From the NCBI GenBank assembly GCA_021821785.1, contig JAKACD010000003.1, forward strand, positions 8,462 through 72,461: a stretch of DNA of 64,000 nucleotides. The letters are read 5' to 3'. Positions within the stretch are counted from its first letter, which is position 1. Each line of letters starts with the position of its first letter. Both the position numbers and the translations under genes were made by a program. The notes below the pieces were generated by a model. The model did not search any database and was not told where the DNA came from. It was given only the letters and a program-made list of their open reading frames with translations. Shown here piece by piece: positions 4,780 through 21,287 of this stretch. The DNA is from Thermoplasmata archaeon. Its GTDB lineage: Archaea; Thermoplasmatota; Thermoplasmata; Lutacidiplasmatales; UBA184.

Positions 4780-5707
4780 GGTAGAGCGTGAGGACGGGGA
4801 TGGCCTCCCGGAATCCGGCCCCCACGAGCGCGGCCCGGCCTCGTTCGTTCTCTCGCGGGACCATCGCGAGGACCCGAGGGCTCCCCCGGTCCGCGCACCA
4901 TCGGGTCGCGGTCGCGACCAGACCGAGCGCCCGCTCCGGATCGAGCGACTCGGCCAGGATCGGGCTCGAGAGGTGCCCTGCCTCGGTCGCCCGGGAGACC
5001 GCGGCGGCGACCCAGGCGACCGCCCCGGCGCCGTCGTCGATCACCCAGGCGGCGCGTTCGCTCGCGAGGAGGTCCCCTTCCCACGGCGAGCCGGTGAGCT
5101 CCCGCTCGGTGGCGGGCAACACCTCCTCGACGACCGCGGGGCGGACGCGGCGGGCGGTCGCGACCAGCGCACGGGCGTCCTCGGAACGGAACGGGCGAAG
5201 TCCCGGTACGGCGGCCGCGGGCGGCGCGCCGCCGTCGGGCCGTTCCTGGACAAAGTAGGCGGTCTCGCGCAGGGTCCGGAAGCCGAGCCGGTCGTAGAGC
5301 GCGCGCGCGGGCGTGTTCGCGGCGAGGACGTCCAGCACGAGGTACGGTCGTCGCCGGGCGCGGCTCGCGGCCCGGGCCCGCTCGAGGAGCGACTGCGCGA
5401 GGCCTCGACGGCGCCAGGCGGGGTCGACGACGACCATGCTGACATAGCCGGCCCGGCGCGAGAACGTCAGGAGGGTCGTGGCGACGAGACGGCCCGCCTC
5501 CTCGACCACGAAGAAGCGGAAGATCGGTCGGCCGACCAGGCGCAACAGACCGAGGACGAACCGGACGTCCCACCGGAAGATCCGGCGGACGACCTCGAAG
5601 AACCCCTCGGGACGGGTGCCGAGGAGCGCCTCCTCCTCGGGAAAGTACTGTTTCATGAAGCGCAGAAGGTCCGCGGCGTCCCGCCCTTGGAGTTCGCGGA
5701 CCGTCAC
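4766..5707 (-). CDS. GNAT family N-acetyltransferase (two GNAT-like halves)
   Basis: GTG start at 5707 forms a GTGA overlap with the HEAT-protein stop (5704-5706). The acetyl-CoA motif is VVVDPAWRRRGLAQSLLERA...NTPARALYDRLGF. Confidence 0.7.
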   Translation of the reverse strand: MTVRELQGRDAADLLRFMKQYFPEEEALLGTRPEGFFEVVRRIFRWDVRFVLGLLRLVGRPIFRFFVVEEAGRLVATTLLTFSRRAGYVSMVVVDPAWRRRGLAQSLLERARAASRARRRPYLVLDVLAANTPARALYDRLGFRTLRETAYFVQERPDGGAPPAAAVPGLRPFRSEDARALVATARRVRPAVVEEVLPATERELTGSPWEGDLLASERAAWVIDDGAGAVAWVAAAVSRATEAGHLSSPILAESLDPERALGLVATATRWCADRGSPRVLAMVPRENERGRAALVGAGFREAIPVLTLYRGVR

Positions 5708-7209
5708 GGCTCGTCGTCCTCGCCCGAGCTCGGGATCGCCGACTCGAAGAGGAGGCGGACGGTCGGCGGGGCCCGGTCGAGCGCGAGCTCGGGGAGCGGC
5801 AGCCGGGCCGCCCGGTCGAGCTCCTCCTCCGTGAGGCGTTCTCGCGCGTCCACGAGCGCCCGGTGGATGAGCGGGTCGGGGAGGCCGTGCGCAAGGCGGC
5901 CGAGCGCCTGGACGACCGCATCGAAGACGCGGCTCTCCGCGTCGGAGCGGAGGGGGTTCTCCCCCTGCGCGACCCGGAGGTGGTTCGGCACATCGATGGG
6001 GCGCGTCTCGTACAGCAGTCGCACGAGCGCCTCGCGCGCTCCGTCGTCCGCGAGCACGCCGAGCGCCCAGACCGCCGCGAGCCGCACCTCGGCGGCGGGA
6101 TCGAGGAGCTCCTCCCGGATCCGGGGGGCGGCCTCGGCGAGTCCCAGACGGCCGAGGGCGTAGATCGCGCCGCGGCGGGGCCAGGGGTGCTCGTCGCGCA
6201 GCAGGCCGAGCAGCGCGGAGAGGTGGGTCGGTCCCCCGACCGCGCCGAGCGCCACCGCCGCGGCGCCCCGGACCGACCACGCCGGGTCGGTGAGATGGTC
6301 GGCCGCGACCGGCGCGCCCTCCGGAGCGCCCATCTCGCCGAGCGCGTGGATCGCGCAGACGCGGACCCAGTGCGCCGGATGCTCGGCCGCTCGGAGCAGC
6401 TCGGGCAGGGCCTCCCGCGCCCCGATGCGGCCGAGCGCGATCAGCACCGCCGGCTTCTCCCACGTCTCGGGTCGATCGAGAAGGGCGAGGAGCGGGCCCA
6501 CGCTCGTGGGGTCGCGCCGTCGGCCCAGCACGACCGCGGCCGCCACCCGGACCCGACGCGACGGATCGGCGAGGTGGGCGCGGAGGATCGGGAGATCGAC
6601 CGGATCGTCCGAGCGGCCGAGCGCGAGCAGCGCCTCCCGGCGGACCCGGTCGTGCGGGTCCTCGAGGAGCGGGCGAAGGCAGGCACGGGCCTCGTCGGTC
6701 CCCAGCCGACCGAGCGCGGTCGCGACCGCGCGGCGTACCTCGGGAGCGGGATCGTTCCCGTGCGCGGAGAGCACCGGCAGCGAGCGCGCATCCTCGAGAA
6801 GGGCGAGCGCGTAGCCGGCTCGGGTCCGCACCGCCGCTTCGGGATCGGAGAGCGCGTGCTCGAGGGCCTCCCGGCTCTCCGCGTGGCCGATCGCCCCGAG
6901 CGCATCGACCGCCGCCCCCCGCACCGCCGGGTCCGGGTCGGTGAGCGCCGTGACGAGCGTCGAGCGGCCCCGCGGGTCCTTCAGGATCCCGAGCGCGACC
7001 GCAGCCGTCTCCCGGATCCCCGGGACCGGGTCGCTGAGCGCGACCAGGAGTGGACCCAGGTCCGCGACGTACCCCCGCGCCACGCTGGCCCGGATCGCCG
7101 CCGCCCGCTCCGACGGGGTCCGGGGCGGGGTCGTCTTCTTCCGACCGCCCGCGCGTCGGCGCGCGGCCGTCCCGGGCCTCTTCGAGCGATGGCGGGCTCG
7201 GTCGGGCAC
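5704..7209 (-). CDS. HEAT-repeat (PBS-lyase HEAT-like) protein
   Basis: 501 aa with more than 10 tandem repeats of the type L..aL.DpdpaVR..Aa.ALG.iG. The N-terminus is basic. GTG start. Confidence 0.8.
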   Translation of the reverse strand: MPDRARHRSKRPGTAARRRAGGRKKTTPPRTPSERAAAIRASVARGYVADLGPLLVALSDPVPGIRETAAVALGILKDPRGRSTLVTALTDPDPAVRGAAVDALGAIGHAESREALEHALSDPEAAVRTRAGYALALLEDARSLPVLSAHGNDPAPEVRRAVATALGRLGTDEARACLRPLLEDPHDRVRREALLALGRSDDPVDLPILRAHLADPSRRVRVAAAVVLGRRRDPTSVGPLLALLDRPETWEKPAVLIALGRIGAREALPELLRAAEHPAHWVRVCAIHALGEMGAPEGAPVAADHLTDPAWSVRGAAAVALGAVGGPTHLSALLGLLRDEHPWPRRGAIYALGRLGLAEAAPRIREELLDPAAEVRLAAVWALGVLADDGAREALVRLLYETRPIDVPNHLRVAQGENPLRSDAESRVFDAVVQALGRLAHGLPDPLIHRALVDARERLTEEELDRAARLPLPELALDRAPPTVRLLFESAIPSSGEDDEP

Positions 7210-7221
7210 GCCGAGCGGACC

Positions 7222-9567
7222 CTATGCGGGGCTAAAAGGTCCGCTCGGCCCCGGGCCGTTCGCGAGCTCCGATTGCGTCGCACGCTCGGGCGAGCGGTAC
7301 GGCGCGCGCGTCGGGGCCAGGGGCCCGCCCCACCGCTCGAGCAACGTCGCCCGGTCGATCCCGAGGGGGGCGAGGAGGGTCTCGGCGTCCCGTGCGAGCA
7401 GGTCGAGGTACGCCCCGACGTCGTAGCGCTCGTCGCCCGTGAGCTGCTCCGCGACCGCGACCCGACGGCGGAACGACCGACTCTCCCGATCGAGGAGGAC
7501 GAACCGGACGACCTCGCCCGCCTCCCGCCGGGCCCCGGCCTCCGCGAGCTGGCGCAGGGCGGCGACCGAGTCGGTGAACGTACCGAACGCCTCGGGCGCC
7601 TGGCCGACCCGGTGGCTCACGAGGAGCTCCTCGACCGGCCAGTCGCCCGCCGCGACGCGGGCGGCGATGAGGTCGGCCCGGGAGAGGGCCCGGGGGAGCA
7701 GCGCCCGGACGCCGGCCGCGTCGCGCGCGGTACGAAAGAGGGTCAGGACCTCGCTCTCGAACCGACGGACGAGCCCCGGCGTGTCGTGACGACGGCCGCC
7801 GATCCCGCGGAGTTTGAACTCCCCGTGCTCGTAGAGGCCGTAGTACCGGTTCGGCACGCCGAGCCCGTGCGTCACCGCCGGCAGGAACACGATCCAGCGG
7901 TACCGCCCCTCGTAGCCGAGGGGGAGGTCGAACCGCTCGCTCATGCGGGCCGCGAACCCCTCGGGGTCCGCGGGCCGCCCGAGGTCGACGGGCCGCAGCC
8001 AGAGCGAGTCAACGATCCCGTGCAGCACCGCGTAGCCGGCCCGCTCGGCCTCCGGAAGGAGGGCGGCGATGAGCTCCCGGGCGTAGGCGTTGATCGCCTC
8101 GTGGCATTCGATCCGGCCGAAGCGGGCGTTGCGGTAGCCCTGGTAGCCGAACGCCGTCACGAGGATCCACTTGAGCATCTTGACTCGGCGGCGGAGACGG
8201 CTCGCCTCCTCCGCGGGGAGGCCGGGGCGCTTCAGGGCCGCCTTGTAGGCGAGGCGTCGGGCGAGGAGCGGGGCGAGGGTGCGGGGGATGAGGCCGACCC
8301 GGCGGGTGCAGGAGCGGTAGCCGAGCCCCGGAGCCCGGATCGGGCTCTGCGGACAGCAGCGGCACTCGAGCGTCTCCGCGGAGAGGTTCTTGCGGACCAT
8401 GATGTGCGGGTAGAGGCTCGCGAAATCGAACTCGTCGACGTGGTCGTGGACCCCGACCGGCGGGAGGAAGATCACCCCCCCGCGGTCGGCCGCGACCAGG
8501 CGGTCGGCCCGGCGGAACCCCTCGGGACGGTTCTTCTTCCACGGCACGTGCGCGCCGAGCGCGAGCGCGTGGGCCATCTCCATCGCCGTGAAGCAGGTCC
8601 CCGGCGACTGGCGGACGACGGTCGCGAGCGAGAGGCGGGAGAGCCGGGCCGCGTCGACCAGGCCGGCGATCTCGGCGTCGTCGTAGAGGAAGGAGTTCTC
8701 TCGGTCGATATGGAACCGACCGGGGATCGGGTACGATGCGGAACGATGCAGCACGCGACCGTACGACTCGAACGAGCGCGCGGGCCGGCTCGCCCGGAAG
8801 CCGACCCGCTCGCGGCCGAGGGAGAACTCGGACGGAGGCAGCCCGCACGCCGCTGCCCGCCGGTAGAGCCACGGGAGGTCGAAGGAATCTCCGCCCTGGG
8901 TGAGCAGGATGTCGGGATCGCTCCGCGCGAGCTCATCGACCAGCGCGCGCAAGAGGTCCGCCTCGGGCCCCTCGAGCGTCACCTCGCCGAGGCGGACCGA
9001 CCCGATACGGCCGTCCGGCGGCGGGAGCCGGCCCCGGCGCATCCCGGCGAGACGGACCTCGAGCCGGGCGAGGCGCAGCGGCGGGGGAAGGTACTCGATC
9101 GCCTCGGGAGGCTCGGTCGCGGTGAGCGCGGCCCCGGTCCCCACGACCGGGGCGAACGGGTAGAGCGCATGGCCGAGGTGGTAGAGCTGCGGGGGGAGGA
9201 GGTCGACGTCGTAGAGCGAGAACGTCTCGTACTGCCCGGCGGCGTCGACCTCCCGGGCGAGCGCCCGGCGCTCCGGGTTCCGCATCGGGGTGACCGTGAG
9301 GACCGGGCGGGGGCGCCGATCGTAGAGCGACGGGCGCCCCGTCCCCAGCGCGACCGCGGCGACGGTCGGTCGCCCGGCGAGCGAGCGGGCGAGGTCGACG
9401 AGCGCGGGGCGGGGTCCCGTGACCAGGAACGGGGGACGGTACTCGACGGCGGTGCGGCGGACCCGTCCGGTCCGTCGCGACTTCACCCAGAGGACGATCG
9501 AGCGGCCGTCCTCGCTCTCGGTGATGTCGAGAAGCCAGCCGTCGGGGGTCGACGTCGGTCCGCTCAC
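7222..9567 (-). CDS. polB: family B DNA polymerase, divergent (altered Exo I, motif B, motif C, KKRY)
   Basis: 781 aa. Motif A is DFASLYPH, Exo II is GGDSFDLPWLYRRA, and motif B reads KWILVTAFGYQGY. Motif C reads HGIVDS (8005-8022) instead of YxDTDS. Exo I reads LEV instead of DxE. The segment LRGIGGRRHDTP matches tRGle.vRRD. Confidence 0.85.
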   Translation of the reverse strand: MSGPTSTPDGWLLDITESEDGRSIVLWVKSRRTGRVRRTAVEYRPPFLVTGPRPALVDLARSLAGRPTVAAVALGTGRPSLYDRRPRPVLTVTPMRNPERRALAREVDAAGQYETFSLYDVDLLPPQLYHLGHALYPFAPVVGTGAALTATEPPEAIEYLPPPLRLARLEVRLAGMRRGRLPPPDGRIGSVRLGEVTLEGPEADLLRALVDELARSDPDILLTQGGDSFDLPWLYRRAAACGLPPSEFSLGRERVGFRASRPARSFESYGRVLHRSASYPIPGRFHIDRENSFLYDDAEIAGLVDAARLSRLSLATVVRQSPGTCFTAMEMAHALALGAHVPWKKNRPEGFRRADRLVAADRGGVIFLPPVGVHDHVDEFDFASLYPHIMVRKNLSAETLECRCCPQSPIRAPGLGYRSCTRRVGLIPRTLAPLLARRLAYKAALKRPGLPAEEASRLRRRVKMLKWILVTAFGYQGYRNARFGRIECHEAINAYARELIAALLPEAERAGYAVLHGIVDSLWLRPVDLGRPADPEGFAARMSERFDLPLGYEGRYRWIVFLPAVTHGLGVPNRYYGLYEHGEFKLRGIGGRRHDTPGLVRRFESEVLTLFRTARDAAGVRALLPRALSRADLIAARVAAGDWPVEELLVSHRVGQAPEAFGTFTDSVAALRQLAEAGARREAGEVVRFVLLDRESRSFRRRVAVAEQLTGDERYDVGAYLDLLARDAETLLAPLGIDRATLLERWGGPLAPTRAPYRSPERATQSELANGPGPSGPFSPA

Positions 9568-9571
9568 ACGG

Positions 9572-9826
9572 TCAGCGTCGGGGGGCCCGCTCCGGAGGCT
9601 CGGGGCGAATCCGCGCGGCCAGGTCGGTGAGGACCGAGAGAAGGATCGACTCGAGGAGATCGGGGCTACCGACGTACGTCGCCTGGGCGGCGTAGCGACG
9701 GGCTCCCGAACGGACGAGGTCGAACGCGGCCCGCTCCTCGGGCGTCGTCAGGAGCCGCGCGAACTCGTCCCAGCGTTTCATCCGCTCCTCGAGCGCCTGC
9801 CGGTAGGTCGGGGCGGTACGTCCCAC
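9572..9826 (-). CDS. small hypothetical protein (69-84 aa, helical)
   Basis: The ORF lies between the RadB-like gene and polB. An internal ATG at 9781 forms an ATGA overlap with the upstream stop (9778-9780). Only 4 nt separate its stop from the polB GTG start. No recognisable domain. Confidence 0.45.
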   Translation of the reverse strand: MGRTAPTYRQALEERMKRWDEFARLLTTPEERAAFDLVRSGARRYAAQATYVGSPDLLESILLSVLTDLAARIRPEPPERAPRR

Positions 9827-10662
9827 GCAATCACCTCCTCGGCGGAAACGCCGCCGAACTCCTCGAGGCCGCGCTGTCCGCTCGGCCGGGCCACGAAGGT
9901 GAGCCGGGCATCGTCCCGCAGGGCCCGCAGGCGCAGGCCGGACGGCCCGCGCTCGAACGTGACGACGTCGGCCCAGCGGGGGCCCTCCTCGGCGAGCCCG
10001 GGGAACGTCGCGATCCCACCCGGGCCGAGCGTCAGGAGCAACGGCACCCGGACCCGGTCGATGAGCGGGACGAGGGTGCGGGCGAGGTGACGGAGGAGCG
10101 CGAGCCGTTCCTCCGCGGGGACCTCGGGGTCGGCGAACAGCGCCGGAAGGTCATGGCCGACGAGCAACGTCGGCGGGTGACGCCGCGCCTCGGCCTCCCA
10201 GCCGTCGACGAGCGCGACCATCTGATAGACGGTGAACGCCCGCGCGAGCCGGATCCCCTCGAGCGTCCGGCGCGCATCGACCCCCAACGACCGGCCGAGC
10301 TCGCCGATGCGGTACGGATGGAACCGGTTCGCCCCTTCGAGAAGGGAGATCCGTCCCCGGACGACCGCGCTTCCCGCGTAGAGGAGCTCGAGGATCGGCT
10401 CGACGGCGGCCCGGGGACCCGTCCAGAGCGTCAGCTCCCCGGGCGCGAAGCGCCGGTCGAGCCAGGGAAACAGCGCCGGCGCGGCGGGCAGGAGCGGTCC
10501 GGCCGACCTCCGTCGGGGACGCGCCCGGGCCCGCCGGGGGAACGGGAGGCGCGGAAGCCGGGGGACCGCCGGGGGAACGCTCTCGGGCAGGAACGGCGCC
10601 CACGGTTCGGGTTCCGGCACCTCCATCGGGACCGCCGGGGCGACCGGGGAACCGTCGAACAT
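9778..10662 (-). CDS. RadB/RecA-fold protein with degenerate Walker A and B (predicted pseudo-ATPase)
   Basis: After a ~65-aa Pro/Arg-rich N-terminus, LDRRFAPGELTLWTGPRAAVEPILELL...ISLLEGANRFHPYRIGELGRSLGVDARRTLEGIRLARAF...TLLVGHDL follows the archaeal RadB layout (FAPG..t.vyGp.gsGKT...yvDtEg.FspeR...). GKT is replaced by VEP, and hhhhD by LLVGHD. Confidence 0.5.
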   Translation of the reverse strand: MFDGSPVAPAVPMEVPEPEPWAPFLPESVPPAVPRLPRLPFPRRARARPRRRSAGPLLPAAPALFPWLDRRFAPGELTLWTGPRAAVEPILELLYAGSAVVRGRISLLEGANRFHPYRIGELGRSLGVDARRTLEGIRLARAFTVYQMVALVDGWEAEARRHPPTLLVGHDLPALFADPEVPAEERLALLRHLARTLVPLIDRVRVPLLLTLGPGGIATFPGLAEEGPRWADVVTFERGPSGLRLRALRDDARLTFVARPSGQRGLEEFGGVSAEEVIAWDVPPRPTGRRSRSG

Positions 10663-10753
10663 GAACCGAACGCGCCTCCCGGGAATCTAGCGCCGGGAAC
10701 GCTCTAAAGCGGCGGCTCGGGAGACCTTGAAACGCAGCGAGAACGGAGCGTTT

Positions 10754-11542
10754 CTATCCGTCCCGGGAGAGCTCGGGGGCATCGAGCCGTCCGCTCCCGG
10801 GCGGGGGCGGGAGCCCGAGCTCCTCGGAGAGCGTGCGGCAGTTCACGGCCGCGTCCCCCCGGAAGTGGTTGTTGAAGAACCCGTAGATGGTCGCCACCTG
10901 CTCGGTCAGCGCGCGCACCCGGGGGACCCAGGCCAGGAGCTCGGGAAGGGAATAGAGATAGTCGTACCAGAGGGGGCTCCCGTGGCCGTGCCAGCGCACG
11001 TAGGCGAACGGGGCGGTCACCTCGAACGCGATGGGGAGGTGCGGACCGTCCACGATCACGTGCGCGAGGCCGAACTCCCGCAGGAGCTCGTAGGACTCCC
11101 GGACCAGCCAGGAGCGCTCCCGGAACTCGACCGCGACCGGGAGGTCCCGGGGGAGCGTCTCGTAGAACCGGCGGACGGTCGCCGCCTCGAACGGAAGGGA
11201 CGGAGGGAGCTGGAGGAGCGCGGCGGTGAACTTCCCCGCCTCTCGAATCGGCTTCAGGACCGCGAGGAAGCGGGCGAGCTCCTCCTCGGTGCCGACCAGG
11301 CGCAGGTCGTGCGTGATCGTCTGGGGGAACTTCGCCGCGAAGCGGAACCGGGCCGGCGTGCGGTGGACCCAGGAGGCGGCGACGGAGGGCGGCGGCAGGC
11401 GATAGAACGTGGAGTTGACCTCGACGATCGGGAAGAGCTTCGCATAGTAGGCCAACCGATCGCTGACCCCCCGCGGCGGGTAGACCCGACCGACCCATTC
11501 GGGGTAGTCCCAGCCGCTGGTCCCGAGCAGGATGTCGCCCAC
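10754..11542 (-). CDS. DUF72 (UPF0759/YecE-like) family protein
   Basis: 262 aa. The pattern LGTSGWDYPEWVGRVYP...YAKLFPIVEVNSTFYRLP...VAVEFRERSW...FFNNH is typical of DUF72. Confidence 0.85.
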   Translation of the reverse strand: MGDILLGTSGWDYPEWVGRVYPPRGVSDRLAYYAKLFPIVEVNSTFYRLPPPSVAASWVHRTPARFRFAAKFPQTITHDLRLVGTEEELARFLAVLKPIREAGKFTAALLQLPPSLPFEAATVRRFYETLPRDLPVAVEFRERSWLVRESYELLREFGLAHVIVDGPHLPIAFEVTAPFAYVRWHGHGSPLWYDYLYSLPELLAWVPRVRALTEQVATIYGFFNNHFRGDAAVNCRTLSEELGLPPPPGSGRLDAPELSRDG

Positions 11543-11612: not shown

Positions 11613-12917
11613 CTACCGCCGAAGGAGCGGGGCCTTCCCCACCGAGGGCGTCGCGAGCGCCGAGGTGGGGATAGCGCCCGGCGCACTGTCCGCGGTCGTC
11701 CGCCCCTGCCAGACCGGCGACCGCCAGAAGGTCAGGAGCCCGTAGATCGTGATCGGGAAGAGGAGCGCGGTGCCGAGCAGCCCGGCGGCGAGGGTGCGGG
11801 CCCGGTCGCCCGGAGGAAGGCGACGCGCCACCGCGGCGGAGAAGGTGCCGGCGGCGACGAGGCCGATCAGCGTCTCGGCGGAGAGGAAGAACCGCAGGAC
11901 GAGCGGCCCGTGCGCCGCGTACGGGAGCCGAAGGAACCCGTTCAACGAGGCGCCGAGGAGGGCAAGGAACTGCTCGCCGAGGTGCACGTAGAGCGGGAGG
12001 CGGACGATCCCGAGCGCGAGCGCGAGGAGCGGGAGCGCGTAGGTGCCGGCAAGCTCGAGGCGGTAGAAGAGGCCCGGGTCCTGGGGGCCGTTCCCCGAGA
12101 GATAGCGGCCGAGGCGGATCCAGCTCGAGCGGGACCAGCGGACGTTCTGGCGGACGAAGGCGGCGAGGCTCTCGGGTCGCTCGGTGATCGCCCCGACCGA
12201 GTAGGCCTTCACCGTGCGCAGGCCCTGGCGCAGCACATGGTCGGTGAGCTGCCAGTCGTCGCCGAGGCGGGTCGGCCGGCCGAGCACCGTGAGGTGCTGG
12301 AAGTCGTCCGATAGGACGTACGGGCGCACGACGTCGGTGCGGAACATCATGCACGCGCCGTCCAGGTAGAGGACGTTCCCGCGCGAGGACATCGCCCGAA
12401 GCACGACCTCGCGGGCCCGTTCCACGAACTCCGAGCAGCGGGCCGCGAGCGAGCCGTTGGGGCGGACGTACAGGTTCGCCCCGACCCCGCCGACCCCTGC
12501 CTCGAAGTACGTGGAGAGGTCCCGAACGGCGTGCTCGGGGATCTCGGTGTCGCTGTCCACAAAGAGGACGAACTCGGTCGAGACCTGATGGACGCCGGCG
12601 GCGAGCGCCCGCTTCTTCCCTCCTCGCTCGGCGAGCCCCACGAACTCCGCGCCGGCCTCGGTCGCGAGGGTACGGTACGGCTCGTCCACCCCGTCGCCCA
12701 CGACGATCACCCGGCACCCGTCCCGGGTCACCGAGCGCAGGCACTCCGCGAACCGCTCCGGGCGCTCGGCGTGCACGGGCACCACGATCGTGACGTCCCG
12801 CGGGTCGGCGGGCGGCGCACGGCCGACCGACCCCCGGTGCCGGGACAGGAAGGCGTTGACGAGCAGGTAGACGACCGGGACGAGGCCGACGAAGAACGCG
12901 ATGTCCCAGATGAACAC
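11613..12917 (-). CDS. family 2 glycosyltransferase, processive (hyaluronan/chitin/cellulose-synthase-like), membrane-integral
   Basis: Motifs are VVPVHAE, DSDT, GDDWQLT and QNVRWSRS (the QxxRW motif), plus N- and C-terminal TM segments. The start is uncertain: GTG at 12917 was chosen, and TTG near 12978 is possible. The tracked ORF upstream of this is antisense to the ferredoxin gene. Confidence 0.75.
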   Translation of the reverse strand: MFIWDIAFFVGLVPVVYLLVNAFLSRHRGSVGRAPPADPRDVTIVVPVHAERPERFAECLRSVTRDGCRVIVVGDGVDEPYRTLATEAGAEFVGLAERGGKKRALAAGVHQVSTEFVLFVDSDTEIPEHAVRDLSTYFEAGVGGVGANLYVRPNGSLAARCSEFVERAREVVLRAMSSRGNVLYLDGACMMFRTDVVRPYVLSDDFQHLTVLGRPTRLGDDWQLTDHVLRQGLRTVKAYSVGAITERPESLAAFVRQNVRWSRSSWIRLGRYLSGNGPQDPGLFYRLELAGTYALPLLALALGIVRLPLYVHLGEQFLALLGASLNGFLRLPYAAHGPLVLRFFLSAETLIGLVAAGTFSAAVARRLPPGDRARTLAAGLLGTALLFPITIYGLLTFWRSPVWQGRTTADSAPGAIPTSALATPSVGKAPLLRR

Positions 12918-13076
12918 GATCGCGATCGGACCTCCCCCCTGCCGCGCCCCGCCCTGCTGTGGGGAGCGAGCCCTCCCCCACAAAGAGGTTTGTCCCGAGG
13001 GGCCCCGATTCCTCGGGACCCGGCCGGGGGCCAGACGGGCCGACGGGCTCGGAACCCTACTTCGCGGGGCGGCCAA

Positions 13077-13087
13077 CACTAAATACG
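13077..13087 (+). promoter_or_regulatory. TATA-like box (CACTAAATACG) upstream of the ferredoxin gene
   Basis: An AT-rich island in a GC-rich context, ~35 nt upstream of the ATG at 13122. GGGAGGA lies just upstream of the start. Confidence 0.4.
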
Positions 13088-13121
13088 GGGCGTCGATGGT
13101 TTCCGCGGACGGGAGGAACCG

Positions 13122-13400
13122 ATGGTCACGGTCGACATTGACCTCGGCAAGTGCACCGGCTGCTCGCACTGCCGCGACGTCTGTCCGGTCAATGTCTTCG
13201 AGCTCCGCCCCCGCGACCAGCTCCCCGACCTCGTGGACGATCCCGCGGTCGGGGCGAAGTTCCAGTTCCGGGGCGAGAAGTCGATCTCGGTGAACGGTCC
13301 GGACTGCATCGTCTGCGAAGCGTGCCTTTTCGAGTGCGAGGGGGAGTGCATCCTCATCACGGACGAAGAAGGCCACGTCCACAACTCGGTCTACAAGTGA
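13122..13400 (+). CDS. 2x[4Fe-4S] ferredoxin-like protein
   Basis: CTGCSHCRDVCP and CIVCEACLFEC cluster motifs. 92 aa. Confidence 0.8.
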   Translation: MVTVDIDLGKCTGCSHCRDVCPVNVFELRPRDQLPDLVDDPAVGAKFQFRGEKSISVNGPDCIVCEACLFECEGECILITDEEGHVHNSVYK

Positions 13401-13454: not shown

Positions 13455-13793
13455 GTGGCCGAGACGCCGCAGGAGCCGGGGCCCACCGTCGTGCTCGGGG
13501 AGCGGGAGCTCGCGATCGGATTCCGTCTGATCGGTCTCAAGGATGTCATCGAAGTGACACCCGAGAACTCCATCGAGGAGTTCCAGCGCGTGATGAGCCA
13601 GGGCCGCTATAGCCTGGTCATCGCGAGCCAGTCGATCCGCGCCCGCCTCTCCGAGACCCAGCGGGCGGCCGCCGACGCCTCGCTCGCGCCGCTCGCGGTG
13701 TTCGTACCGACCCCCACGGGCGAGTTCGAGGTCGAGAGCATCAACACCCTCGCGAAGCGGGTGCTCGGGGTCACGCTCCAAGTTCCGTCGTAG
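13455..13793 (+). CDS. atpF: A-type ATP synthase subunit F
   Basis: 112 aa, LAIGFRLIGL...SLVIASQSI pattern, immediately upstream of atpA. Confidence 0.85.
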   Translation: MAETPQEPGPTVVLGERELAIGFRLIGLKDVIEVTPENSIEEFQRVMSQGRYSLVIASQSIRARLSETQRAAADASLAPLAVFVPTPTGEFEVESINTLAKRVLGVTLQVPS

Positions 13794-13802
13794 GAGAGGA
13801 AG

Positions 13803-15557
13803 ATGGCAGGGGTCATCGCGCGGGTTTCCGGTCCGGTCGTCATCGCCGAGGGTCTCGTGGGTGCGAAGATGTACGATGTCGTACGCGTCGGATCGCTCGG
13901 TCTCGTGGGGGAGATCATCCGGCTCGTGGGCGGCACGGCGACCGTGCAGGTCTACGAGGACACGACGGGGATCCGCCCCGGCGATCCCGTGGAGAACACC
14001 GGCCAGGCGCTGAGCGTCGAGCTCGGCCCGGGCCTCCTGAAGTCGATCTACGACGGCGTCCAACGCCCCCTCGATGTGATCCAGAAGAGCGTCGGGGACT
14101 TCATCACGCGAGGGTTCGCCGCCGCACCGCTCGACCCGGCGGCGAAATGGGAGTTCACCGCGACCGCGAAGACCGGGAGCGAAGTGACTCCGGGCGCGAT
14201 CCTCGGGACCGTCCAGGAGACCCAGCTCATCCTGCACAAGATCATGGTGCCCCCCGGCGTTCGGGGGACCCTGAAATCGCTCAAGTCCGGCTCCTATACC
14301 ATCCGGGACCCGATCGGGTCGGTCACGACCTCCTCGGGCGACGTCCCGCTCTACCTGTCCCAGAAGTGGGTCGTCCGGGTCGCCCGTCCGGTCGCGCAGA
14401 AGCTCCCGCCCGAGATCCCGCTCGTCACGGGCCAGCGGGTCGTCGACACCTTCTTCCCCGTCGCGAAGGGCGGAACGGCCGCGATCCCGGGTCCGTTCGG
14501 AAGCGGGAAGACGGTCACGCAGCAACAGCTCGCGAAGTGGGCCGACTCGGACATCGTCGTCTACGTCGGCTGCGGCGAGCGCGGCAACGAGATGACGGAA
14601 GTGCTCGCGACGTTCCCGAGCCTCCAGGACCCGAAGTCCAAGCGGCCGCTCATGGAGCGGACGATCCTGATCGCGAATACTTCGAACATGCCGGTCGCCG
14701 CCCGCGAGGCCAGCGTGTACACGGGGATCACGATCGCCGAGTACTACCGCGACATGGGCTACGACGTCGCGCTCATGGCCGACTCGACCAGCCGGTGGGC
14801 CGAGGCGATGCGCGAGATATCGGGGCGGCTCGAGGAGATGCCCGGTGAGGAAGGCTACCCGGCCTACCTCGGTCGGCGTATCGCAGAGTTCTACGAACGG
14901 GCCGGCCGCGTCGTGACCCTCTCCCCCGAGGGCCGGACGGGATCGGTCACGGTCGTCGGCGCGGTCTCGCCGCCCGGCGGGGACACCTCCGAGCCCGTCA
15001 GCCAGAACACGCTCCGGGTCGCCCGCGTCTTCTGGGCGCTCGATGCCTCGCTCGCCTCCCGGCGCCACTTCCCCTCGATCAACTGGCTCCAGAGCTACTC
15101 GCTCTACCTCACCGACCTCGAGCCGTGGTACCGCCGGGAGCTCTCGAAGGAGTTCGTCCAGCTCCGGCAGCGGGCCCTCGAGACCCTCCAGAAGGAGTCG
15201 GAGCTCCAGGAGATCGTCCAGCTGGTCGGCGTCGACGCGCTCCCCGAGCGGGAGAAGGCGACGCTCGACGTCGCCCGGATGCTGCGGGAGGACTACCTCC
15301 AGCAGAGCGCGTTCGACGACGTCGACACGTACACCTCGATCCAGAAGCAGGTCCGGATGCTGCGGGCGATCCTCGCCTTCGGCGACCGGGAACAGGAGGC
15401 GATCGGGAAGGGCGCGACCGTCGCGCAGCTCCAGAAGCTGCCCGTCCGCACCAAACTCTCCCGGATGAAGTGGATCCCCGAGGCGGACATGAAGAACTCG
15501 TTCGACCAGCTCGAGCTCGAGATGGCCGAGGCCGTGAGCGCGGTCGGAGGGGCCTAA
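13803..15557 (+). CDS. atpA: A-type ATP synthase catalytic subunit A
   Basis: 584 aa. Walker A is GPFGSGKTV, followed by GERGNEM and [10 protein letters not shown]. Confidence 0.95.
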
Positions 15558-15558
15558 G

Positions 15559-16995: not shown

Positions 16996-17014
16996 GACCC
17001 GAGGAAGGGATGCC

Positions 17015-17659
17015 GTGGCGATCGAGAACGTCCGACCGACCCGACTCGAGCTCCTACGCACGCGCCGGCGCATCGGGGTCGCGAAGCGCGGGTTGAACCT
17101 GCTCAAGCTGAAACGCTCGGCCCTGATCGCCGAGTTCTTCGCGATCTCCCGCGAGGCCCTGCGCCTCCGCGGAGACCTCCAGCAGCGGATCGCCCGCGGC
17201 TACGAGTCGATCCGCAACGCGGAGATGATGGAAGGCCCGACGCGCCTCGAGAACATCTCGATGCTGCTCCCGGACGTTCGGCCGGTGACGGTCTCGACGA
17301 AGAACGTCATGGGCGTGCGCACGCCGCGCGTCGACCGGGGCGGCTACGCGCCCACGGAGGCGGCCTCGCTCCTCGACCTCCCGACCTCCGTGCAGGAGTC
17401 GATCCGCCACTTCCAGGGGATCTACCAGGTCGTGCTCGACATCGCCGAGAAGGAGAACGCGCTCCGTCGGCTGCTCAAGGAGATCGAGAAGACGAAGCGG
17501 CGGGCGAGCGCGATCGAGAACGTGCTCATCCCCCGGCTCGAGGCGACCGTGCGCTACATCAAGTTCCGGTTCGACGAGATGGAACGCGACGCGTTCAGCA
17601 TGTTGAAGACCGTCAAGCGCAAGATGGAGCAGGAGGGCTCGGGTGTCGCCGTCGCCTGA
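17015..17659 (+). CDS. atpD: A-type ATP synthase subunit D
   Basis: 214 aa. The coiled-coil pattern is PTRLELLRTRRRIGVAKRGLNLLKLKR... Confidence 0.9.
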   Translation: MAIENVRPTRLELLRTRRRIGVAKRGLNLLKLKRSALIAEFFAISREALRLRGDLQQRIARGYESIRNAEMMEGPTRLENISMLLPDVRPVTVSTKNVMGVRTPRVDRGGYAPTEAASLLDLPTSVQESIRHFQGIYQVVLDIAEKENALRRLLKEIEKTKRRASAIENVLIPRLEATVRYIKFRFDEMERDAFSMLKTVKRKMEQEGSGVAVA

Positions 17660-18133: not shown

Positions 18134-18145
18134 CGGGGTCGCTCG

Positions 18146-20149
18146 ATGGCGCTGCGTCCGATCCGGATGGTAAAGGTCGGCCTCCTCGGCCTGCGCGAGG
18201 ACGAGGAACGGGTCCTGACCATCCTGCACGACCTGCGCGTCGCCCAGGTCGAGCCGCTCACCCCCGCCGCGATGGCCGAGCTCGCCCCCGAGCGGGGCTC
18301 GGAGACCCTGCGGCGGGTCGGGGACGAGACGCTGCGCTTCCGCGGACTGTTGAGCGCGCTCCCCCCGGCGGGCACGGCGGCCCCCCGGCGGTTCGACTCG
18401 CTCGGCGACATCTTCCGGGCGGCCCAGTCCGTCCCGATCGACGCCGAGGTCGGCGAGCTGAAGCGCGAGGACGACCGGCTCCTGACCGAGAAGAAGGCCG
18501 CAACCGACACGGTCGAACTGCTCGAGGCGATGGCGTTCTACCGCGACCGGCTCGACCTCCTCCGGTCCGCGAACTTCCTCAGTTTCTACGGGGAGGCCCC
18601 GACCGAGGGGTTCGAGGCGCTCCGGGCGTCGCTCCCCGCCGAGGCCGACGCGCGCTTCCTCCTCGGGCCGACCGCGGACGAACGGGTCCGCTTCCTCGTC
18701 ATCGCCCGCCCGGCGGGGTCGGAGGCGCTCAGCCGCGCGGCCCAGAGCCGGGGCGTCCGCCTCACCGCGGTCCCCCCGCTCCACGGGACGCCGAACGAGG
18801 AGCTCGTCGAGCTCCGCGCCCGGCTCGACACGATCGCCGAGCGACGGCGCGCGATCGCCGGCCGGCTCCGGGAGATCGCCGAGCAATGGTATCCATTCGT
18901 CGCGGCGGTCGACGAAGCGCTCGAGATCGAGAACCGGAAGGCCGAGGTCCTCGCGAAGCTCGGCGCGAGTCGCGCGACCTTCGCGCTCGAGGCCTGGGTC
19001 CCGGCCCGGGACCTCGAGCGGCTGCGCGCGGTCGTCACCGAGGCGGCGGGGGGCCGGGTCCACTTCTACGAGGTCCCCACCCGGGAAGAGCCGCCGACGA
19101 TGATGAGCAACCCGAGCGGCGTCCGCCGCTTCGAGTTCTTCGTCCGGTTCTACTCCCTCCCGCAGGCGACCGAGTGGGACCCCACGCTCGTCTTCGCGAT
19201 CGCGTTCCCCATCTTCTTCGGCTTCATGCTCGGCGACTGGGGCTACGGCCTCACGATCCTCCTGATCTCGCTCTGGATGATCGCGGGATTCCCGGGCGCG
19301 CGCTACCTCCCGAAGGCCGGGAAGAACTTCGTGAAGATGATCATGGGGCCGCAGGGGATGCAGCAGCTCGCCTACGCGCTCCTGCCCGGCTGCGGGCTCG
19401 CGATCGCGCTCGGGCTCGTCTGGGACGAGTTCTTCGGCATCCACCTCTTCGGGCTCCTGTTCGGCTACACGACGCCGCTCGACCCCGCGAGCAAGGCCGG
19501 CGTCCCGGTGCTCCTCCTGTTCGCCGGTTTCGTCGGGCTCGGGATGGTCGTCCTCGGGTTCGTCTTCGGGGCGCTCAAGGAGTACTTCCACCACCACCCG
19601 CGCGGGGTCGTCGCGAAGTCGGGCGGGATCCTGTTCGCGTTCGGGGTGGCGTTCTTCGGGCTCTCGGTCATCCACAAGCAGACCTCCTTCGGGAACCCGC
19701 TCTTCGACCTCTACCTCGCGCTCCTCCTGGCCGGCCTCGTGCTCCTCGTCTTCGGCGAGGGAGTCCAGATGGGGATGATGGGGCTCATCGAGGTCGTGAG
19801 CCACATTCTCTCCTACACGCGGCTTGTGGGGATCCTGCTCGCGAGCGTGATCCTCGCGCTCGTGATCAACTCGATCGGCAGCGGCCTCGTCTACGGCGGG
19901 ACGGCCCTCGGGATCCTCTTCGGGCTCGTCATCCTCATCGTCGGCCAGTCGTTCAACGTCATCCTCGGGGTCTTCGAACCCGGGATCCAGGGAGCGCGAC
20001 TGATCTTCGTCGAGTACTTCTCGAAGTTCTACAGCGGGAACGGCCGGCCGTTCCGGCCGTTCGGGGCCGCGCGACGGCACACCGTGAGCTCGATCGGCCC
20101 GGACGGCGGGGTCGCGAAGGGGCCGATCCTGCAGGGCCCCGAGAGCTGA
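18146..20149 (+). CDS. atpI: A-type ATP synthase subunit I (membrane a-subunit)
   Basis: 667 aa with a soluble N-terminal half and a polytopic C-terminal half (SHILSYTRLVGILLAS motif). Confidence 0.9.
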   Translation: MALRPIRMVKVGLLGLREDEERVLTILHDLRVAQVEPLTPAAMAELAPERGSETLRRVGDETLRFRGLLSALPPAGTAAPRRFDSLGDIFRAAQSVPIDAEVGELKREDDRLLTEKKAATDTVELLEAMAFYRDRLDLLRSANFLSFYGEAPTEGFEALRASLPAEADARFLLGPTADERVRFLVIARPAGSEALSRAAQSRGVRLTAVPPLHGTPNEELVELRARLDTIAERRRAIAGRLREIAEQWYPFVAAVDEALEIENRKAEVLAKLGASRATFALEAWVPARDLERLRAVVTEAAGGRVHFYEVPTREEPPTMMSNPSGVRRFEFFVRFYSLPQATEWDPTLVFAIAFPIFFGFMLGDWGYGLTILLISLWMIAGFPGARYLPKAGKNFVKMIMGPQGMQQLAYALLPGCGLAIALGLVWDEFFGIHLFGLLFGYTTPLDPASKAGVPVLLLFAGFVGLGMVVLGFVFGALKEYFHHHPRGVVAKSGGILFAFGVAFFGLSVIHKQTSFGNPLFDLYLALLLAGLVLLVFGEGVQMGMMGLIEVVSHILSYTRLVGILLASVILALVINSIGSGLVYGGTALGILFGLVILIVGQSFNVILGVFEPGIQGARLIFVEYFSKFYSGNGRPFRPFGAARRHTVSSIGPDGGVAKGPILQGPES

Positions 20150-20195
20150 CCGGTCGGGACGGGCGCCTCGGCGGGCGCGATCGGCGGGACCGGAT

Positions 20196-21272
20196 TTAGA
20201 GCCGCGGCGAGATGAGGAGCGGCGTGAGGCGCTCCGGCGCGAAGCCGTAGAGGCGGCCGAAGACGAGGCGGCGCAGGTCCGAGCGCTCGAGCTCGGCGAG
20301 GAGCAGGTAGGTGAAGATCACTCCGAGGCTGAGCGGATACGCCCGCATTCGCTTGAGCTCGGTGAGCGCCCGGTCGCGCTGGATCGCGACCTCGTAGCCC
20401 GACAGGCTCGCGCCGTTGGTGAAGTCGCCGGTCCCGTCGGCGATCGACGGGAAGCGCGTCGCGAGCCGCTCGGCGAGCTCGGGGACGCCGCGGGCCGCGT
20501 AGAGGTCGGGGGCCTGGGCGGCGGTGAGGGTCCCCCCGTCGAGCCACCGACCGAGGACGGCCTCGACCGGAAGCGCCGCGCTCTTCCCCTTGAGGAGCAG
20601 CATCGCGTTGCGGACATCGAGCTCGCTCTGGATGAACGAGCGGACGACCCACTCGTCGCCCTGGAAGAACCGGGCCGCCTCGAGGACCGCCTTGAAGTAC
20701 TGGCGGTCGAGCGCCTGGAGGACCGGGAAGATGTCGTGCGTCCGCTCGAACGCCTCGAGGAGCGGCAGGATCGTGCCGCCGTAGCCGTACTTCACGAGCT
20801 GGCTCACCGTCGCCTCGAGGGTCGGCTGGCCGAGGACGATGCGGAAGTCGTCGAGCGTCATCACCCCGGCGTAGAGCCCCGCGGGGATGTCGCGGCTCGA
20901 GACGAGGTGGTCCTCGGTCTCGGTGATCGTCCGGCCGAGCGCCTTCGCGCTCAGGATCATCTCGATGTTCTGGATGTCCCACCGTCCGAGGTACGCCGCC
21001 ACGACCGCGCGTCCGGCGAACGGGGCCGCCTCGTAGGCGTGGCGGTTCCGCCGGACGAACGTGCGGTTGATCGCGACCTCGACCAGGGTCGATCCGGCGT
21101 GGGTCGCCCGGGCCCGCGCGACCTCGGGCGCGTACGGGGTCGTCTCGAGCAGCTTCGCGAACTCGTTCGGCTCCTTCGCGCCGGCGAGGCTCGGCCAGAG
21201 GTCGCGGCCGAGGAAGGTCGAGAACTCGGGCTTGAGCCGCCCGAGCGCGCTGGCGTAGGGGGAGCCGGCCAT
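20196..21272 (-). CDS. atpC: A-type ATP synthase subunit C (V0 d-like)
   Basis: 358 aa, typical AtpC sequence (WDIQNIEMILSAK..., LSLGVIFTYLLLAELE). Confidence 0.9.
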   Translation of the reverse strand: MAGSPYASALGRLKPEFSTFLGRDLWPSLAGAKEPNEFAKLLETTPYAPEVARARATHAGSTLVEVAINRTFVRRNRHAYEAAPFAGRAVVAAYLGRWDIQNIEMILSAKALGRTITETEDHLVSSRDIPAGLYAGVMTLDDFRIVLGQPTLEATVSQLVKYGYGGTILPLLEAFERTHDIFPVLQALDRQYFKAVLEAARFFQGDEWVVRSFIQSELDVRNAMLLLKGKSAALPVEAVLGRWLDGGTLTAAQAPDLYAARGVPELAERLATRFPSIADGTGDFTNGASLSGYEVAIQRDRALTELKRMRAYPLSLGVIFTYLLLAELERSDLRRLVFGRLYGFAPERLTPLLISPRL

Positions 21273-21287
21273 CGGTCGCGAACCCCC

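What the first reader, a model, noticed from the sequence alone, without database searches (positions are those of the whole stretch)
9778..10662. RadB-like RecA-fold protein lacking Walker A Lys/Thr and the Walker B Asp context
After a ~65-aa Pro/Arg-rich region the sequence follows archaeal RadB. FAPGELTLWTGPRAAVEPILELL corresponds to FAPGvlTqvYGPyaSGKTtLaLQ, and ISLLEGANRFHPYRIGELGRSLGVDARRTLEGIRLARAF to vayvDTEGgFSPERl.qma...gl.pee.L..i.... The P-loop GKT is VEP (10396-10425), DTEG is LEGA, and the Walker B hhhhDS is LLVGHD. This predicts a nucleotide-independent scaffold derived from a recombinase paralogue, translationally coupled to the genes upstream of polB.
Basis: partly seen in the sequence, partly recalled or inferred. 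Interest (0 to 1): 0.65.

Follow-up and report, generated by a model that had tools for sequence, protein, structure and literature searches.

The report
Inactive RadA subunit of PolB2 polymerase

Summary
Window 9778..10662 (minus strand) encodes a 294-aa protein. It has a disordered Pro/Arg-rich N-terminus followed by a RadA/Rad51-type core. The family profile matches RadA structures at E=2.3e-8. The AlphaFold2 model has pLDDT 86.9, and its Foldseek top 50 are all Rad51/RadA/Dmc1. The Walker A Lys/Thr, the catalytic Glu and the Walker B Asp are all replaced. This is true of all 73 orthologues examined and all 150 best family representatives, and the core is under purifying selection, so it is neither a sequencing error nor a pseudogene.

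It is not novel. It is iRadA, the inactivated RadA encoded in the iRadA-PPB2-PolB2 operon (Makarova 2014; Timinskas 2025). The next gene starts MGRTAPTYR, the PPB2 hallmark. The polymerase has the PolB2 motif C IVD and no ExoI motif. DUF72 lies upstream. The 2025 paper's supplement lists close Thermoplasmata relatives with the same HGIVDSLWL and the same iRadA PCNA-type motif, QRGLEEFG.

"RadB-like" is imprecise, because the family matches RadA models far more often than RadB models. Small additions from this work: a 49-nt iRadA/PPB2 overlap found in every locus examined, a conserved promoter-proximal inverted repeat, and a HEAT-repeat gene conserved downstream.

The parts
9778..10662 (-). iRadA: a 294-aa inactivated RadA/Rad51-core protein (the finding)
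   Evidence: ORF. Profile against PDB RadA E=2.3e-8. AF2 pLDDT 86.9. Foldseek top 50 all Rad51/RadA/Dmc1. 403+ homologues in the database. Core dN/dS 0.19-0.34.
10498..10662 (-). Residues 1-55: Pro/Arg-rich, disordered, weakly constrained N-terminal extension. It is not the helical N-terminal domain of RadA.
   Evidence: pLDDT 58-67 with no secondary structure. dN/dS 0.5-1.1. Most loci have an in-frame ATG 47-68 codons upstream of the core.
10396..10425 (-). Position equivalent to Walker A: WTGPRAAVEP, with no GK[ST]
   Evidence: Translation. Strand 77-81 then helix 84-100. 0 of 73 orthologues and 0 of 150 representatives have GxxxxGK[ST].
10327..10344 (-). LLEGAN, equivalent to RadA IDTEN/G. 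The catalytic Glu is replaced by Ala111.
   Evidence: HMMER alignments to RadA. The family consensus is (V/L)DGGN.
10150..10167 (-). LLVGHD, equivalent to Walker B LLIVDS. The Asp is replaced by His170.
   Evidence: Alignment. H170 is invariant in the 21-sequence alignment. Across the wider family this position is S/T/L/H/A.
9853..9876 (-). QRGLEEFG: a PCNA-interaction (PIP)-like box, residues 263-270
   Evidence: Qx[GT][LIM]xx[FY]x is present in 72 of the 73 orthologues, 31-33 residues from the C-terminus. QxxLxxF is the family-wide C-terminal consensus. The identical motif is listed as the iRadA PCNA motif for a Thermoplasmata MAG in PMC11791011 suppl. file 1.
9778..9840 (-). iRadA 3' end. 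It carries the PPB2 Shine-Dalgarno sequence (GAGGAGGTGA, 9831-9840) and a 49-nt dual-coding overlap with PPB2 (9778-9826).
   Evidence: Sequence. The overlap is exactly 49 nt, with an SD, in all 79 loci scored (78 relatives plus the window). dS is 0.07-0.14 here against 0.5-0.76 in the core.
9572..9826 (-). PPB2 (arCOG07300): an 84-aa partner of PolB2 with the N-terminal MGRTAPTYR arm
   Evidence: ORF. MGRT[AVS]PTY[RH]QAL in 76 of 76 orthologues. BLASTP to the Sulfolobales PPB2 sequence gives E=4e-5, aligned from residue 1. No Pfam or NCBIfam hit.
7222..9567 (-). PolB2: a 781-aa B-family polymerase with motif C HGIVDS (first Asp replaced by Ile), no ExoI DxE, and a conserved D288-R289
   Evidence: Pfam DNA_pol_B and exo1. 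NCBIfam PRK05761.1-4. Alignment to Pyrococcus abyssi PolB puts ...lhgivdslw opposite ...lyidtdgly. Motif conservation in 64 orthologues.
10702..10754 (-). Conserved upstream element: GAAACGC-N12-GCGTTTCAAGG-N7-CCGAGCCGCC-GCTTTAGAG. Probably a TATA box with an upstream operator.
   Evidence: Inverted repeat. Conserved at nucleotide level in 64 related loci, always just upstream of iRadA. One copy in the 64-kb window. No Rfam family.
10754..11542 (-). DUF72 gene, the conserved upstream neighbour
   Evidence: Pfam PF01904 E=1.9e-63. Upstream in 71 of 80 loci. Reported as enriched near polB2 (PMC11791011).
5704..7209 (-). HEAT-repeat protein gene, 12 nt downstream of PolB2, conserved in this clade
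   Evidence: Pfam HEAT_2 E=9.9e-86. Found downstream on the same strand in 56 loci. No occurrence of 'HEAT' in the paper's held (truncated) supplements.

Best explanation
The ORF encodes iRadA, the catalytically dead RadA/Rad51-core subunit of the archaeal PolB2 (Dpo2-type) translesion-synthesis complex.

It is transcribed with PPB2 and PolB2 from its own promoter. Translation of PPB2 is coupled to it through a Shine-Dalgarno sequence and start codon that lie inside the iRadA 3' end.

The protein keeps the RecA-fold core as a protein-protein interaction module and cannot bind or hydrolyse ATP in the canonical way. In the published model, one iRadA docks on a RadA-oligomerisation-like beta-alpha motif in a PolB2 exonuclease-domain loop. 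Together with PolB2 it forms the cleft that receives the MGRT arm of one subunit of a PPB2 trimer. In this lineage its C-proximal QRGLEEFG box would tether the complex to PCNA.

Shown here: the fold, the loss of all three ATPase elements, purifying selection, operon structure and conservation, and the presence of the motifs.

Inferred from the literature: complex formation, PCNA binding, damage induction and a translesion-synthesis role.
For: - Fold and homology. The profile matches RadA at E=2.3e-8. The AF2 model has pLDDT 86.9. The Foldseek top 50 are all Rad51/RadA/Dmc1, at E around 1e-11.
- ATPase loss is conserved: 0 of 150 representatives and 0 of 73 orthologues have a Walker A. A111 and H170 sit at the catalytic Glu and Walker B Asp positions.
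- It is not a pseudogene. Core dN/dS is 0.19-0.34, and relatives were found in 236 stretches of the one-genome-per-species collection.
- Operon. In 80 related loci PPB2 follows in 79, PolB2 in 76, and DUF72 precedes in 71.
- PPB2 hallmark. The MGRT arm with R3 and R9 is present. BLASTP to a Sulfolobales PPB2 gives E=4e-5.
- PolB2 hallmarks. Motif C is IVD, ExoI is lost, and the DR motif is conserved.
- Literature. Makarova 2014 describes the inactivated RadA + arCOG07300 + PolB2 operon. Timinskas 2025 defines iRadA and PPB2, the 1a gene order, DUF72 enrichment and PCNA motifs in iRadA. Its supplement lists Thermoplasmata operons with HGIVDSLWL/IVD and QRGLEEFG, identical to the window.
Against: - No experiment has yet shown a PolB2-iRadA-PPB2 complex. 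The 2026 Sulfolobales review still calls it a prediction to be verified. Purified Dpo2 alone is active (PMC11791011).
- I could not run multimer modelling, so the iRadA-PolB2 and iRadA-PCNA contacts are untested for this protein.
- Direct profile similarity to the Sulfolobales iRadA sequence is weak (hhalign probability 19.5%). This fits the reported fast divergence among iRadA arCOGs, but it is not independent proof of orthology.
- The PIP-like box lies 25-32 residues from the C-terminus rather than at the end.
Confidence: 0.88

Rival explanations
1. A degenerate RadB orthologue: the genome's RadB that has lost its ATPase site, with a recombination-mediator role unrelated to the polymerase.
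For: Like RadB, it is a core-only RecA-fold protein without the N-terminal helical domain. RadB models hit a minority of family members, 18 of 103 with best E 1.6e-9.
Against: RadA, Dmc1 and Rad51 models hit far more members (75, 70 and 53 of 103) with better E-values, down to 8.6e-18. All top structural matches are Rad51/RadA/Dmc1. The gene is locked to PPB2 and PolB2 in 76-79 of 80 genomes, which is the defining context of iRadA and not of RadB.
Confidence: 0.04
2. A recent pseudogene, a sequencing artefact or a spurious high-GC ORF.
For: High-GC DNA yields many long spurious ORFs. The N-terminal 55 codons evolve almost neutrally.
Against: The ORF is intact in all 73 orthologues extracted, with the same substitutions at the ATPase motifs. 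Core dN/dS is 0.19-0.34. The codon-position GC signature is that of real genes. The structure model is confident.
Confidence: 0.01
3. iRadA acts mainly on DNA or on the RadA filament rather than as a structural polymerase subunit. It might cap or mimic a RadA protomer to couple PolB2 to recombination intermediates or stalled forks, as RecA does in Pol V or as Rad51 paralogues do.
For: The fold is that of filament-forming recombinases, and top structural hits include Rad51-paralogue complexes capping filaments. Makarova 2014 suggested roles at stalled forks or in replication initiation. The N-terminal extension contains an Arg-rich stretch, RRARARPRRR.
Against: The published modelling found that PolB2 binds iRadA but not RadA (ranking score 0.28 for RadA). 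iRadA lacks the N-terminal domain and linker that carry the RadA polymerisation motif. The N-terminal extension is weakly constrained.
Confidence: 0.07

Closest known systems
iRadA (inactivated RadA; arCOG07763/arCOG04294/arCOG08101) of the PolB2 operon (Makarova et al. 2014, PMC4104785; Timinskas, Timinskas and Venclovas 2025, PMC11791011)
   Same: RadA/Rad51 core without the N-terminal helical domain. ATPase residues replaced. Gene order iRadA-PPB2-PolB2 (type 1a). DUF72 neighbour. C-proximal PCNA-type motif: the paper's supplement lists QRGLEEFG for a Thermoplasmata MAG, identical to the window.
   Different: Nothing essential differs. This clade adds a disordered Pro/Arg-rich N-terminal extension of about 55 aa and a 24-aa tail after the PIP-like box. 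The tail exists because the gene overlaps PPB2 by 49 nt. Sequence similarity to the Sulfolobales iRadA is only marginal.
Archaeal RadA / eukaryotic Rad51 and Dmc1 recombinases
   Same: The same ATPase-core fold (rmsd about 2.8-3.5 A over about 200 columns). Recognisable blocks after the P-loop: xDTEx-F-P-x-R, ARAF and hhhhDS.
   Different: No N-terminal HhH domain and no polymerisation linker. Walker A Lys/Thr, the catalytic Glu and the Walker B Asp are all replaced. About 17-20% identity.
RadB (euryarchaeal RadA paralogue)
   Same: Core-only architecture of about 220-230 residues.
   Different: RadB retains an intact Walker A and B (established knowledge). RadB models match only 18 of 103 family members. 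RadB is not linked to PolB2 or PPB2.
E. coli Pol V mutasome (UmuD'2C-RecA-ATP)
   Same: A translesion polymerase that uses a RecA-family protomer as an accessory subunit, bound through a filament-like interface, plus a small subunit whose N-terminal arm reaches towards the active site (analogy drawn in PMC11791011).
   Different: Pol V uses a Y-family rather than a B-family catalytic subunit. RecA there is the active cellular recombinase with ATP, whereas iRadA is a dedicated, dead paralogue. UmuD' is a dimer and PPB2 a predicted trimer. The clamp motif is on UmuC there and on iRadA here.

Membership tests
iRadA (PolB2-operon inactivated RadA) | RadA/Rad51-type ATPase-core fold | tested here: met
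   The profile matches PDB RadA at E=2.3e-8. The AF2 model has pLDDT 86.9. The Foldseek top 50 are all Rad51/RadA/Dmc1, at E 7e-12 to 9e-11.
iRadA (PolB2-operon inactivated RadA) | ATP-binding and hydrolysis residues replaced (Walker A, catalytic Glu, Walker B) | tested here: met
   WTGPRAAVEP, LLEGAN (A111) and LLVGHD (H170). No GxxxxGK[ST] in 73 orthologues or 150 family representatives.
iRadA (PolB2-operon inactivated RadA) | Lacks the N-terminal helical (HhH) domain of RadA | tested here: met
   Residues 1-55 are predicted unstructured (pLDDT 58-67, no helices) and the core starts at about residue 57. No Pfam N-terminal domain hit.
iRadA (PolB2-operon inactivated RadA) | Encoded next to PPB2 (arCOG07300) and PolB2 in one orientation | tested here: met
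   Window order is iRadA-PPB2-PolB2, with a 49-nt overlap and a 4-nt gap. Conserved in 79 and 76 of 80 related loci.
iRadA (PolB2-operon inactivated RadA) | Binds PolB2 through a Rad51-oligomerisation-like beta-alpha motif and forms a PolB2:iRadA:PPB2(3) complex | not testable with these tools
   No multimer modelling or biochemistry is available here. The loop region before the conserved D288-R289 of PolB2 exists and is conserved, but the contact itself was not examined.
iRadA (PolB2-operon inactivated RadA) | Sequence homology to the Sulfolobales reference iRadA | tested here: inconclusive
   hhalign of the family profile against the Sulfolobales iRadA sequence taken from the paper's supplement gives probability 19.5% and E=0.0012, with the DPY and RRAF blocks aligned. 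Makarova 2014 reports that iRadA arCOGs have diverged beyond easy detection.
PPB2 / arCOG07300 (the 84-aa ORF) | Small (about 90 aa) protein with a conserved N-terminal MGRT arm and Arg at positions 3 and 9 | tested here: met
   MGRTAPTYR. Conserved in 76 of 76 orthologues. BLASTP to a Sulfolobales PPB2 gives E=4e-5 from residue 1.
PPB2 / arCOG07300 (the 84-aa ORF) | Three-helix fold forming a trimer | not tested
PolB2 (Dpo2-type B-family polymerase) | First Asp of the motif C DxD replaced, and the exonuclease active site lost | tested here: met
   HGIVDS aligns to YIDTDG of Pyrococcus abyssi PolB. The IVD is conserved in orthologues, and the ExoI-equivalent ARLEVRL lacks DxE by inspection of the conserved block. 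The same HGIVDSLWL/IVD is listed for Thermoplasmata PolB2 in the paper's supplement.
PolB2 (Dpo2-type B-family polymerase) | Conserved D(K/R) motif in the exonuclease-domain loop | tested here: met
   The block GRFHIDRENSF (D288-R289) is at least 70% conserved, and mostly 90% or more, across 64 orthologues.
RadB | Best match to RadB models, with an intact Walker A and B | tested here: not met
   The window protein does not hit TIGR02237 at E<=1. RadB models hit 18 of 103 family members against 75 of 103 for RadA. Walker A and B are absent.
KaiC-like RecA-superfamily ATPases | Match to KaiC models, with P-loop ATPase motifs | tested here: not met
   KaiC-type models hit only 1-2 of 103 family members, at E>=1e-4. 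No KaiC among the top 50 structural hits.

The most novel reading that the evidence does not exclude
The gene itself is known. What the published descriptions I read do not cover is operon-level.

The Thermoplasmata iRadA-PPB2-PolB2 operon carries a strongly conserved promoter-proximal element: G(G/A)AAC-N5-GTTC(C/T)C, then GTTTCAAC, then GCTTTAGAG. This could be the operator of a euryarchaeal DNA-damage response, analogous to the Orc1-2-bound ANTTTC element of Sulfolobales.

The operon is also followed by a conserved HEAT-repeat gene, which could encode a lineage-specific extra partner of the complex.

A more speculative add-on: the invariant 49-nt iRadA/PPB2 overlap might allow an occasional frameshift that yields an iRadA-PPB2 fusion like the true fusions seen in other lineages.
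Probability: 0.25. Interest if true: 0.45.

Novelty: already known. Interest (0 to 1): 0.15.

Why it matters
PolB2 with iRadA and PPB2 is proposed to be the main damage-induced mutagenic polymerase system of many archaea and some bacteria, and an architectural analogue of bacterial Pol V. Recognising the window's ORF as iRadA gives a firm annotation for three genes that the Pfam and NCBIfam models tested here do not name: iRadA falls below the Rad51 Pfam gathering score, and PPB2 has no Pfam or NCBIfam model. It also shows the system is common in uncultured soil Thermoplasmata. It does not open a new question. The conserved upstream element and the HEAT-repeat neighbour are modest leads for anyone studying regulation of the archaeal damage response outside Sulfolobales.

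Tried and rejected
- The first AF2 model used 21 close orthologues and was poor (mean pLDDT 54.9). I did not use it. I replaced it with a model built on a 103-sequence diverse alignment.
- The search for related loci with the diverse alignment failed because there was no conserved stretch. I used the close alignment instead.
- I looked for more copies of the upstream element, to define a regulon. There is only the one copy in the window and one per related locus. So a regulon could not be shown.
- I looked for an Orc1/Cdc6 or SRAP gene near the operon, since both are reported as enriched neighbours. None was found among 12 window ORFs scanned with Pfam. The window was not annotated exhaustively.
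- Rfam search of 9400-11000 found nothing. The sigma-70 and terminator scan was uninformative.
- A family HMM against the six-frame translation of the window found no second RecA-like gene.
- RadB, KaiC, pseudogene and spurious-ORF readings were considered and rejected.
- I considered an internal start codon that would remove the Pro/Arg-rich N-terminus. No conserved in-frame start lies nearer the core, while in most loci an ATG sits 47-68 codons upstream of it. So I kept the long form, noting that it is weakly constrained.
Full report
**1. What is in the sequence**

The window is about 72% GC. Its closest relatives are uncultured Thermoplasmata from metagenome assemblies.

On the minus strand, genes lie head to tail:
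- DUF72, 10754..11542
- a 294-aa ORF, 9778..10662 (the finding)
- an 84-aa ORF, 9572..9826
- a 781-aa B-family polymerase, 7222..9567
- a HEAT-repeat protein, 5704..7209

The 294-aa ORF has the codon-position GC signature of real genes in this window (GC3 0.89, GC2 0.57).

**2. Check of the observation**

- Residues 1-65 are 42% Pro+Arg.
- 10396-10425 encodes WTGPRAAVEP.
- HMMER alignments to P. furiosus RadA put ISLLEGANRFHPYRI opposite MWIDTENTFRPERI, and TLLVGHDLPALF opposite KLLIVDSLTSHF. So the catalytic Glu is Ala111 and the Walker B Asp is His170.

The similarity is weak for the single sequence: PDB RadA E=7.8e-4, and Pfam Rad51 E=0.014, below the gathering score. It becomes clear with a profile of 21 orthologues, at E=2.3e-8 against RadA, followed by Rad51 and Dmc1.

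A first AF2 model on a shallow alignment was poor. A second, on 103 diverse family members, has mean pLDDT 86.9, with residues 61-260 above 90 in every 10-residue block. Its 50 best Foldseek matches in the PDB are all Rad51, RadA or Dmc1 cores: E 7e-12 to 9e-11, prob 1.00, rmsd mostly about 3 A over about 200 columns.

The strand-loop-helix that holds the P-loop in RecA-fold proteins is strand 77-81, G82-P83, helix 84-100. It has no Lys or Thr.

**3. It is conserved, not an error or a pseudogene**

- The word-indexed search found 403 homologues, and the best 120 listed were almost all 287-303 aa long.
- The exhaustive representative search found 1010 clusters at E<=1e-3. None of the best 150 has GxxxxGK[ST].
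- 236 stretches in the one-genome-per-species collection encode a relative.
- In 73 extracted orthologous ORFs the Walker A-equivalent is GPxxAVEP-like, LLEGANRF is nearly invariant, and none has a canonical P-loop.
- Pairwise Nei-Gojobori estimates give dN/dS 0.19-0.34 for the core (residues 56-262) and 0.5-1.1 for the N-terminal 55 codons.

The core is therefore under purifying selection. The Pro/Arg-rich extension is weakly constrained. It is probably still translated, because most loci keep an in-frame ATG 47-68 codons upstream of the core.

**4. What it is**

The literature search led directly to the answer.

Makarova et al. 2014 (PMC4104785) described a conserved predicted operon of PolB2, the small alpha-helical arCOG07300, and RadA-family proteins that "all appear to be inactivated".

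Timinskas et al. 2025 (PMC11791011) made several additions:
- They named the partners iRadA and PPB2.
- They showed that iRadA lacks the RadA N-terminal domain and ATPase residues.
- They showed that PPB2 carries a conserved N-terminal MGRT arm with Arg3 and Arg9.
- They showed that most PolB2 lack the first Asp of the DxD motif and the exonuclease site, and have a conserved D(K/R) loop motif.
- They reported that the commonest gene order is iRadA-PPB2-PolB2, that DUF72 is an enriched neighbour, and that many iRadA carry a C-terminal PCNA-binding motif.

The window meets every testable point:
- The 84-aa ORF begins MGRTAPTYR. It aligns from residue 1 to a Sulfolobales PPB2 at E=4e-5.
- The polymerase has DFASLYP (motif A), HGIVDS in place of YxDTDS, ARLEVRL where FDIET should be, and a conserved HIDR.
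- iRadA has QRGLEEFG at residues 263-270. A Qx[GT][LIM]xx[FY]x box is present in 72 of the 73 orthologues, and QxxLxxF is the C-terminal consensus of the whole family.
- The paper's supplementary table lists Thermoplasmata MAG operons of type 1a with a DUF72 neighbour. They carry PolB2 '...HGIVDSLWL / IVD' and the iRadA PCNA motifs 'QRGLEEFG' and 'QRGIEEFG'. Close relatives of this operon are therefore already catalogued.
- Among 80 related loci, PPB2 follows iRadA in 79, PolB2 follows in 76 and DUF72 precedes in 71. Most of the misses are at contig ends.

**5. RadA versus RadB**

NCBIfam RadA, Dmc1 and Rad51 models hit 75, 70 and 53 of 103 family members (best E 8.6e-18). RadB hits 18 (best 1.6e-9) and KaiC-type models hit 1-2. 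The window protein itself hits Dmc1 and RadA models, not RadB.

**6. Mechanism**

Shown here:
- a RecA-fold core with all three ATPase elements replaced
- purifying selection
- obligate genomic linkage and translational coupling to PPB2 and PolB2
- a conserved PIP-like box

Inferred from the published AlphaFold-Multimer and AF3 models:
- One iRadA binds a Rad51-oligomerisation-like beta-alpha motif in the PolB2 loop before the D(K/R) motif.
- Together with PolB2 it forms the cleft for the MGRT arm of one protomer of a PPB2 trimer.
- It can supply the clamp-binding motif.

The complex would act as a damage-induced lesion or mismatch extender, as Dpo2 does in Sulfolobus. Dpo2 induction there depends on Orc1-2.

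The complex has not been shown experimentally, and I could not run multimer modelling.

**7. Things not in the papers I read**

(a) The iRadA stop lies 49 nt inside PPB2 in all 79 loci scored (78 relatives plus the window). In nearly all of them the sequence GAGGAGGTGAT sits 4 nt before the PPB2 start; the same stretch encodes the iRadA residues EEVI. Synonymous divergence drops from 0.5-0.76 in the core to 0.07-0.14 in the overlap, and iRadA-frame dN/dS there is about 1. So the striking conservation of the iRadA tail (EEVIAW...RRSRSG) is most simply a by-product of the PPB2 ribosome-binding site and its invariant N-terminal arm.

(b) A non-coding element of about 55 nt precedes iRadA in 64 related loci and in the window (10702-10754): G(G/A)AAC-N5-GTTC(C/T)C, then GTTTCAAC, then CCGAGCCGCC-GCTTTAGAG.
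- The TTTAGAG begins 18-55 nt upstream of the ATG, which fits a TATA box.
- The upstream inverted repeat and GTTTC box look like a regulator site.
- They share GTTTC with the Orc1-2-bound ANTTTC element of Sulfolobales damage-response promoters.
- It occurs once per locus and once in the window, so no regulon could be defined.

(c) A HEAT-repeat gene follows PolB2 on the same strand in 56 loci.

**8. Verdict**

Novelty: already known. Interest is low. The promoter element, the overlap and the HEAT neighbour are minor leads.

Noticed in passing
window 10702-10754 (minus strand); e.g. L001 4904-4960, L006 4855-4907: A non-coding element is conserved at nucleotide level just upstream of iRadA in 64 related loci. 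It reads G(G/A)AAC-N5-GTTC(C/T)C, then GTTTCAAC, then CCGAGCCGCC-GCTTTAGAG. It is probably a TATA box plus an upstream operator. It shares GTTTC with the Sulfolobales Orc1-2 damage-response motif ANTTTC. There is one copy per locus and one in the window.
   Followed up: partly
window 9778-9840 (minus strand): iRadA and PPB2 overlap by exactly 49 nt in all 79 loci scored (78 relatives plus the window), and the PPB2 Shine-Dalgarno sequence (GAGGAGGTGA) is encoded by the iRadA residues EEV. Synonymous divergence collapses in the overlap. So the conserved iRadA C-tail looks like a by-product of dual coding. The frames differ by one base, so a frameshift fusion is conceivable but has no support.
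   Followed up: partly
window 5704-7209 (minus strand): A 501-aa HEAT-repeat protein gene starts 12 nt after the PolB2 stop. It is conserved in that position and orientation in 56 related loci. The word 'HEAT' does not occur in the held (truncated) supplements of the 2025 paper. Its function and any link to the polymerase complex are unknown.
   Followed up: partly
window 10498-10662 (minus strand): The N-terminal extension of iRadA (about 55 aa, Pro/Arg-rich, containing RRARARPRRR) evolves almost neutrally (dN/dS 0.5-1.1) and is predicted disordered. It appears specific to this Thermoplasmata clade.
   Followed up: partly
L067 (DAIDCO010000015.1): The closest genome-collection relative of the operon (PolB2 90% identical, PPB2 95%) is deposited as 'bacterium isolate clean3188'. 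Its operon is of the Thermoplasmata type, so the taxonomic label is probably wrong.
   Followed up: no
window 13455-21287: An A/V-type ATP synthase gene cluster lies on both strands next to the operon region. It includes a 584-aa ORF at 13803..15557 with a GPFGSGKT P-loop (probable catalytic subunit, assigned by inspection only), a subunit I-like gene at 18134..20149 and a C/AC39-like gene at 20196..21287. A GT2 glycosyltransferase (11613..13382) and a small ORF with a Cys-rich CxxCxxCxxxCP motif (13122..13400, 4Fe-4S ferredoxin-like by inspection only) lie in between.
   Followed up: no
window 22688-25228 (minus strand): Two tandem paralogous genes of about 420 aa each carry a DUF929 domain.
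   Followed up: no
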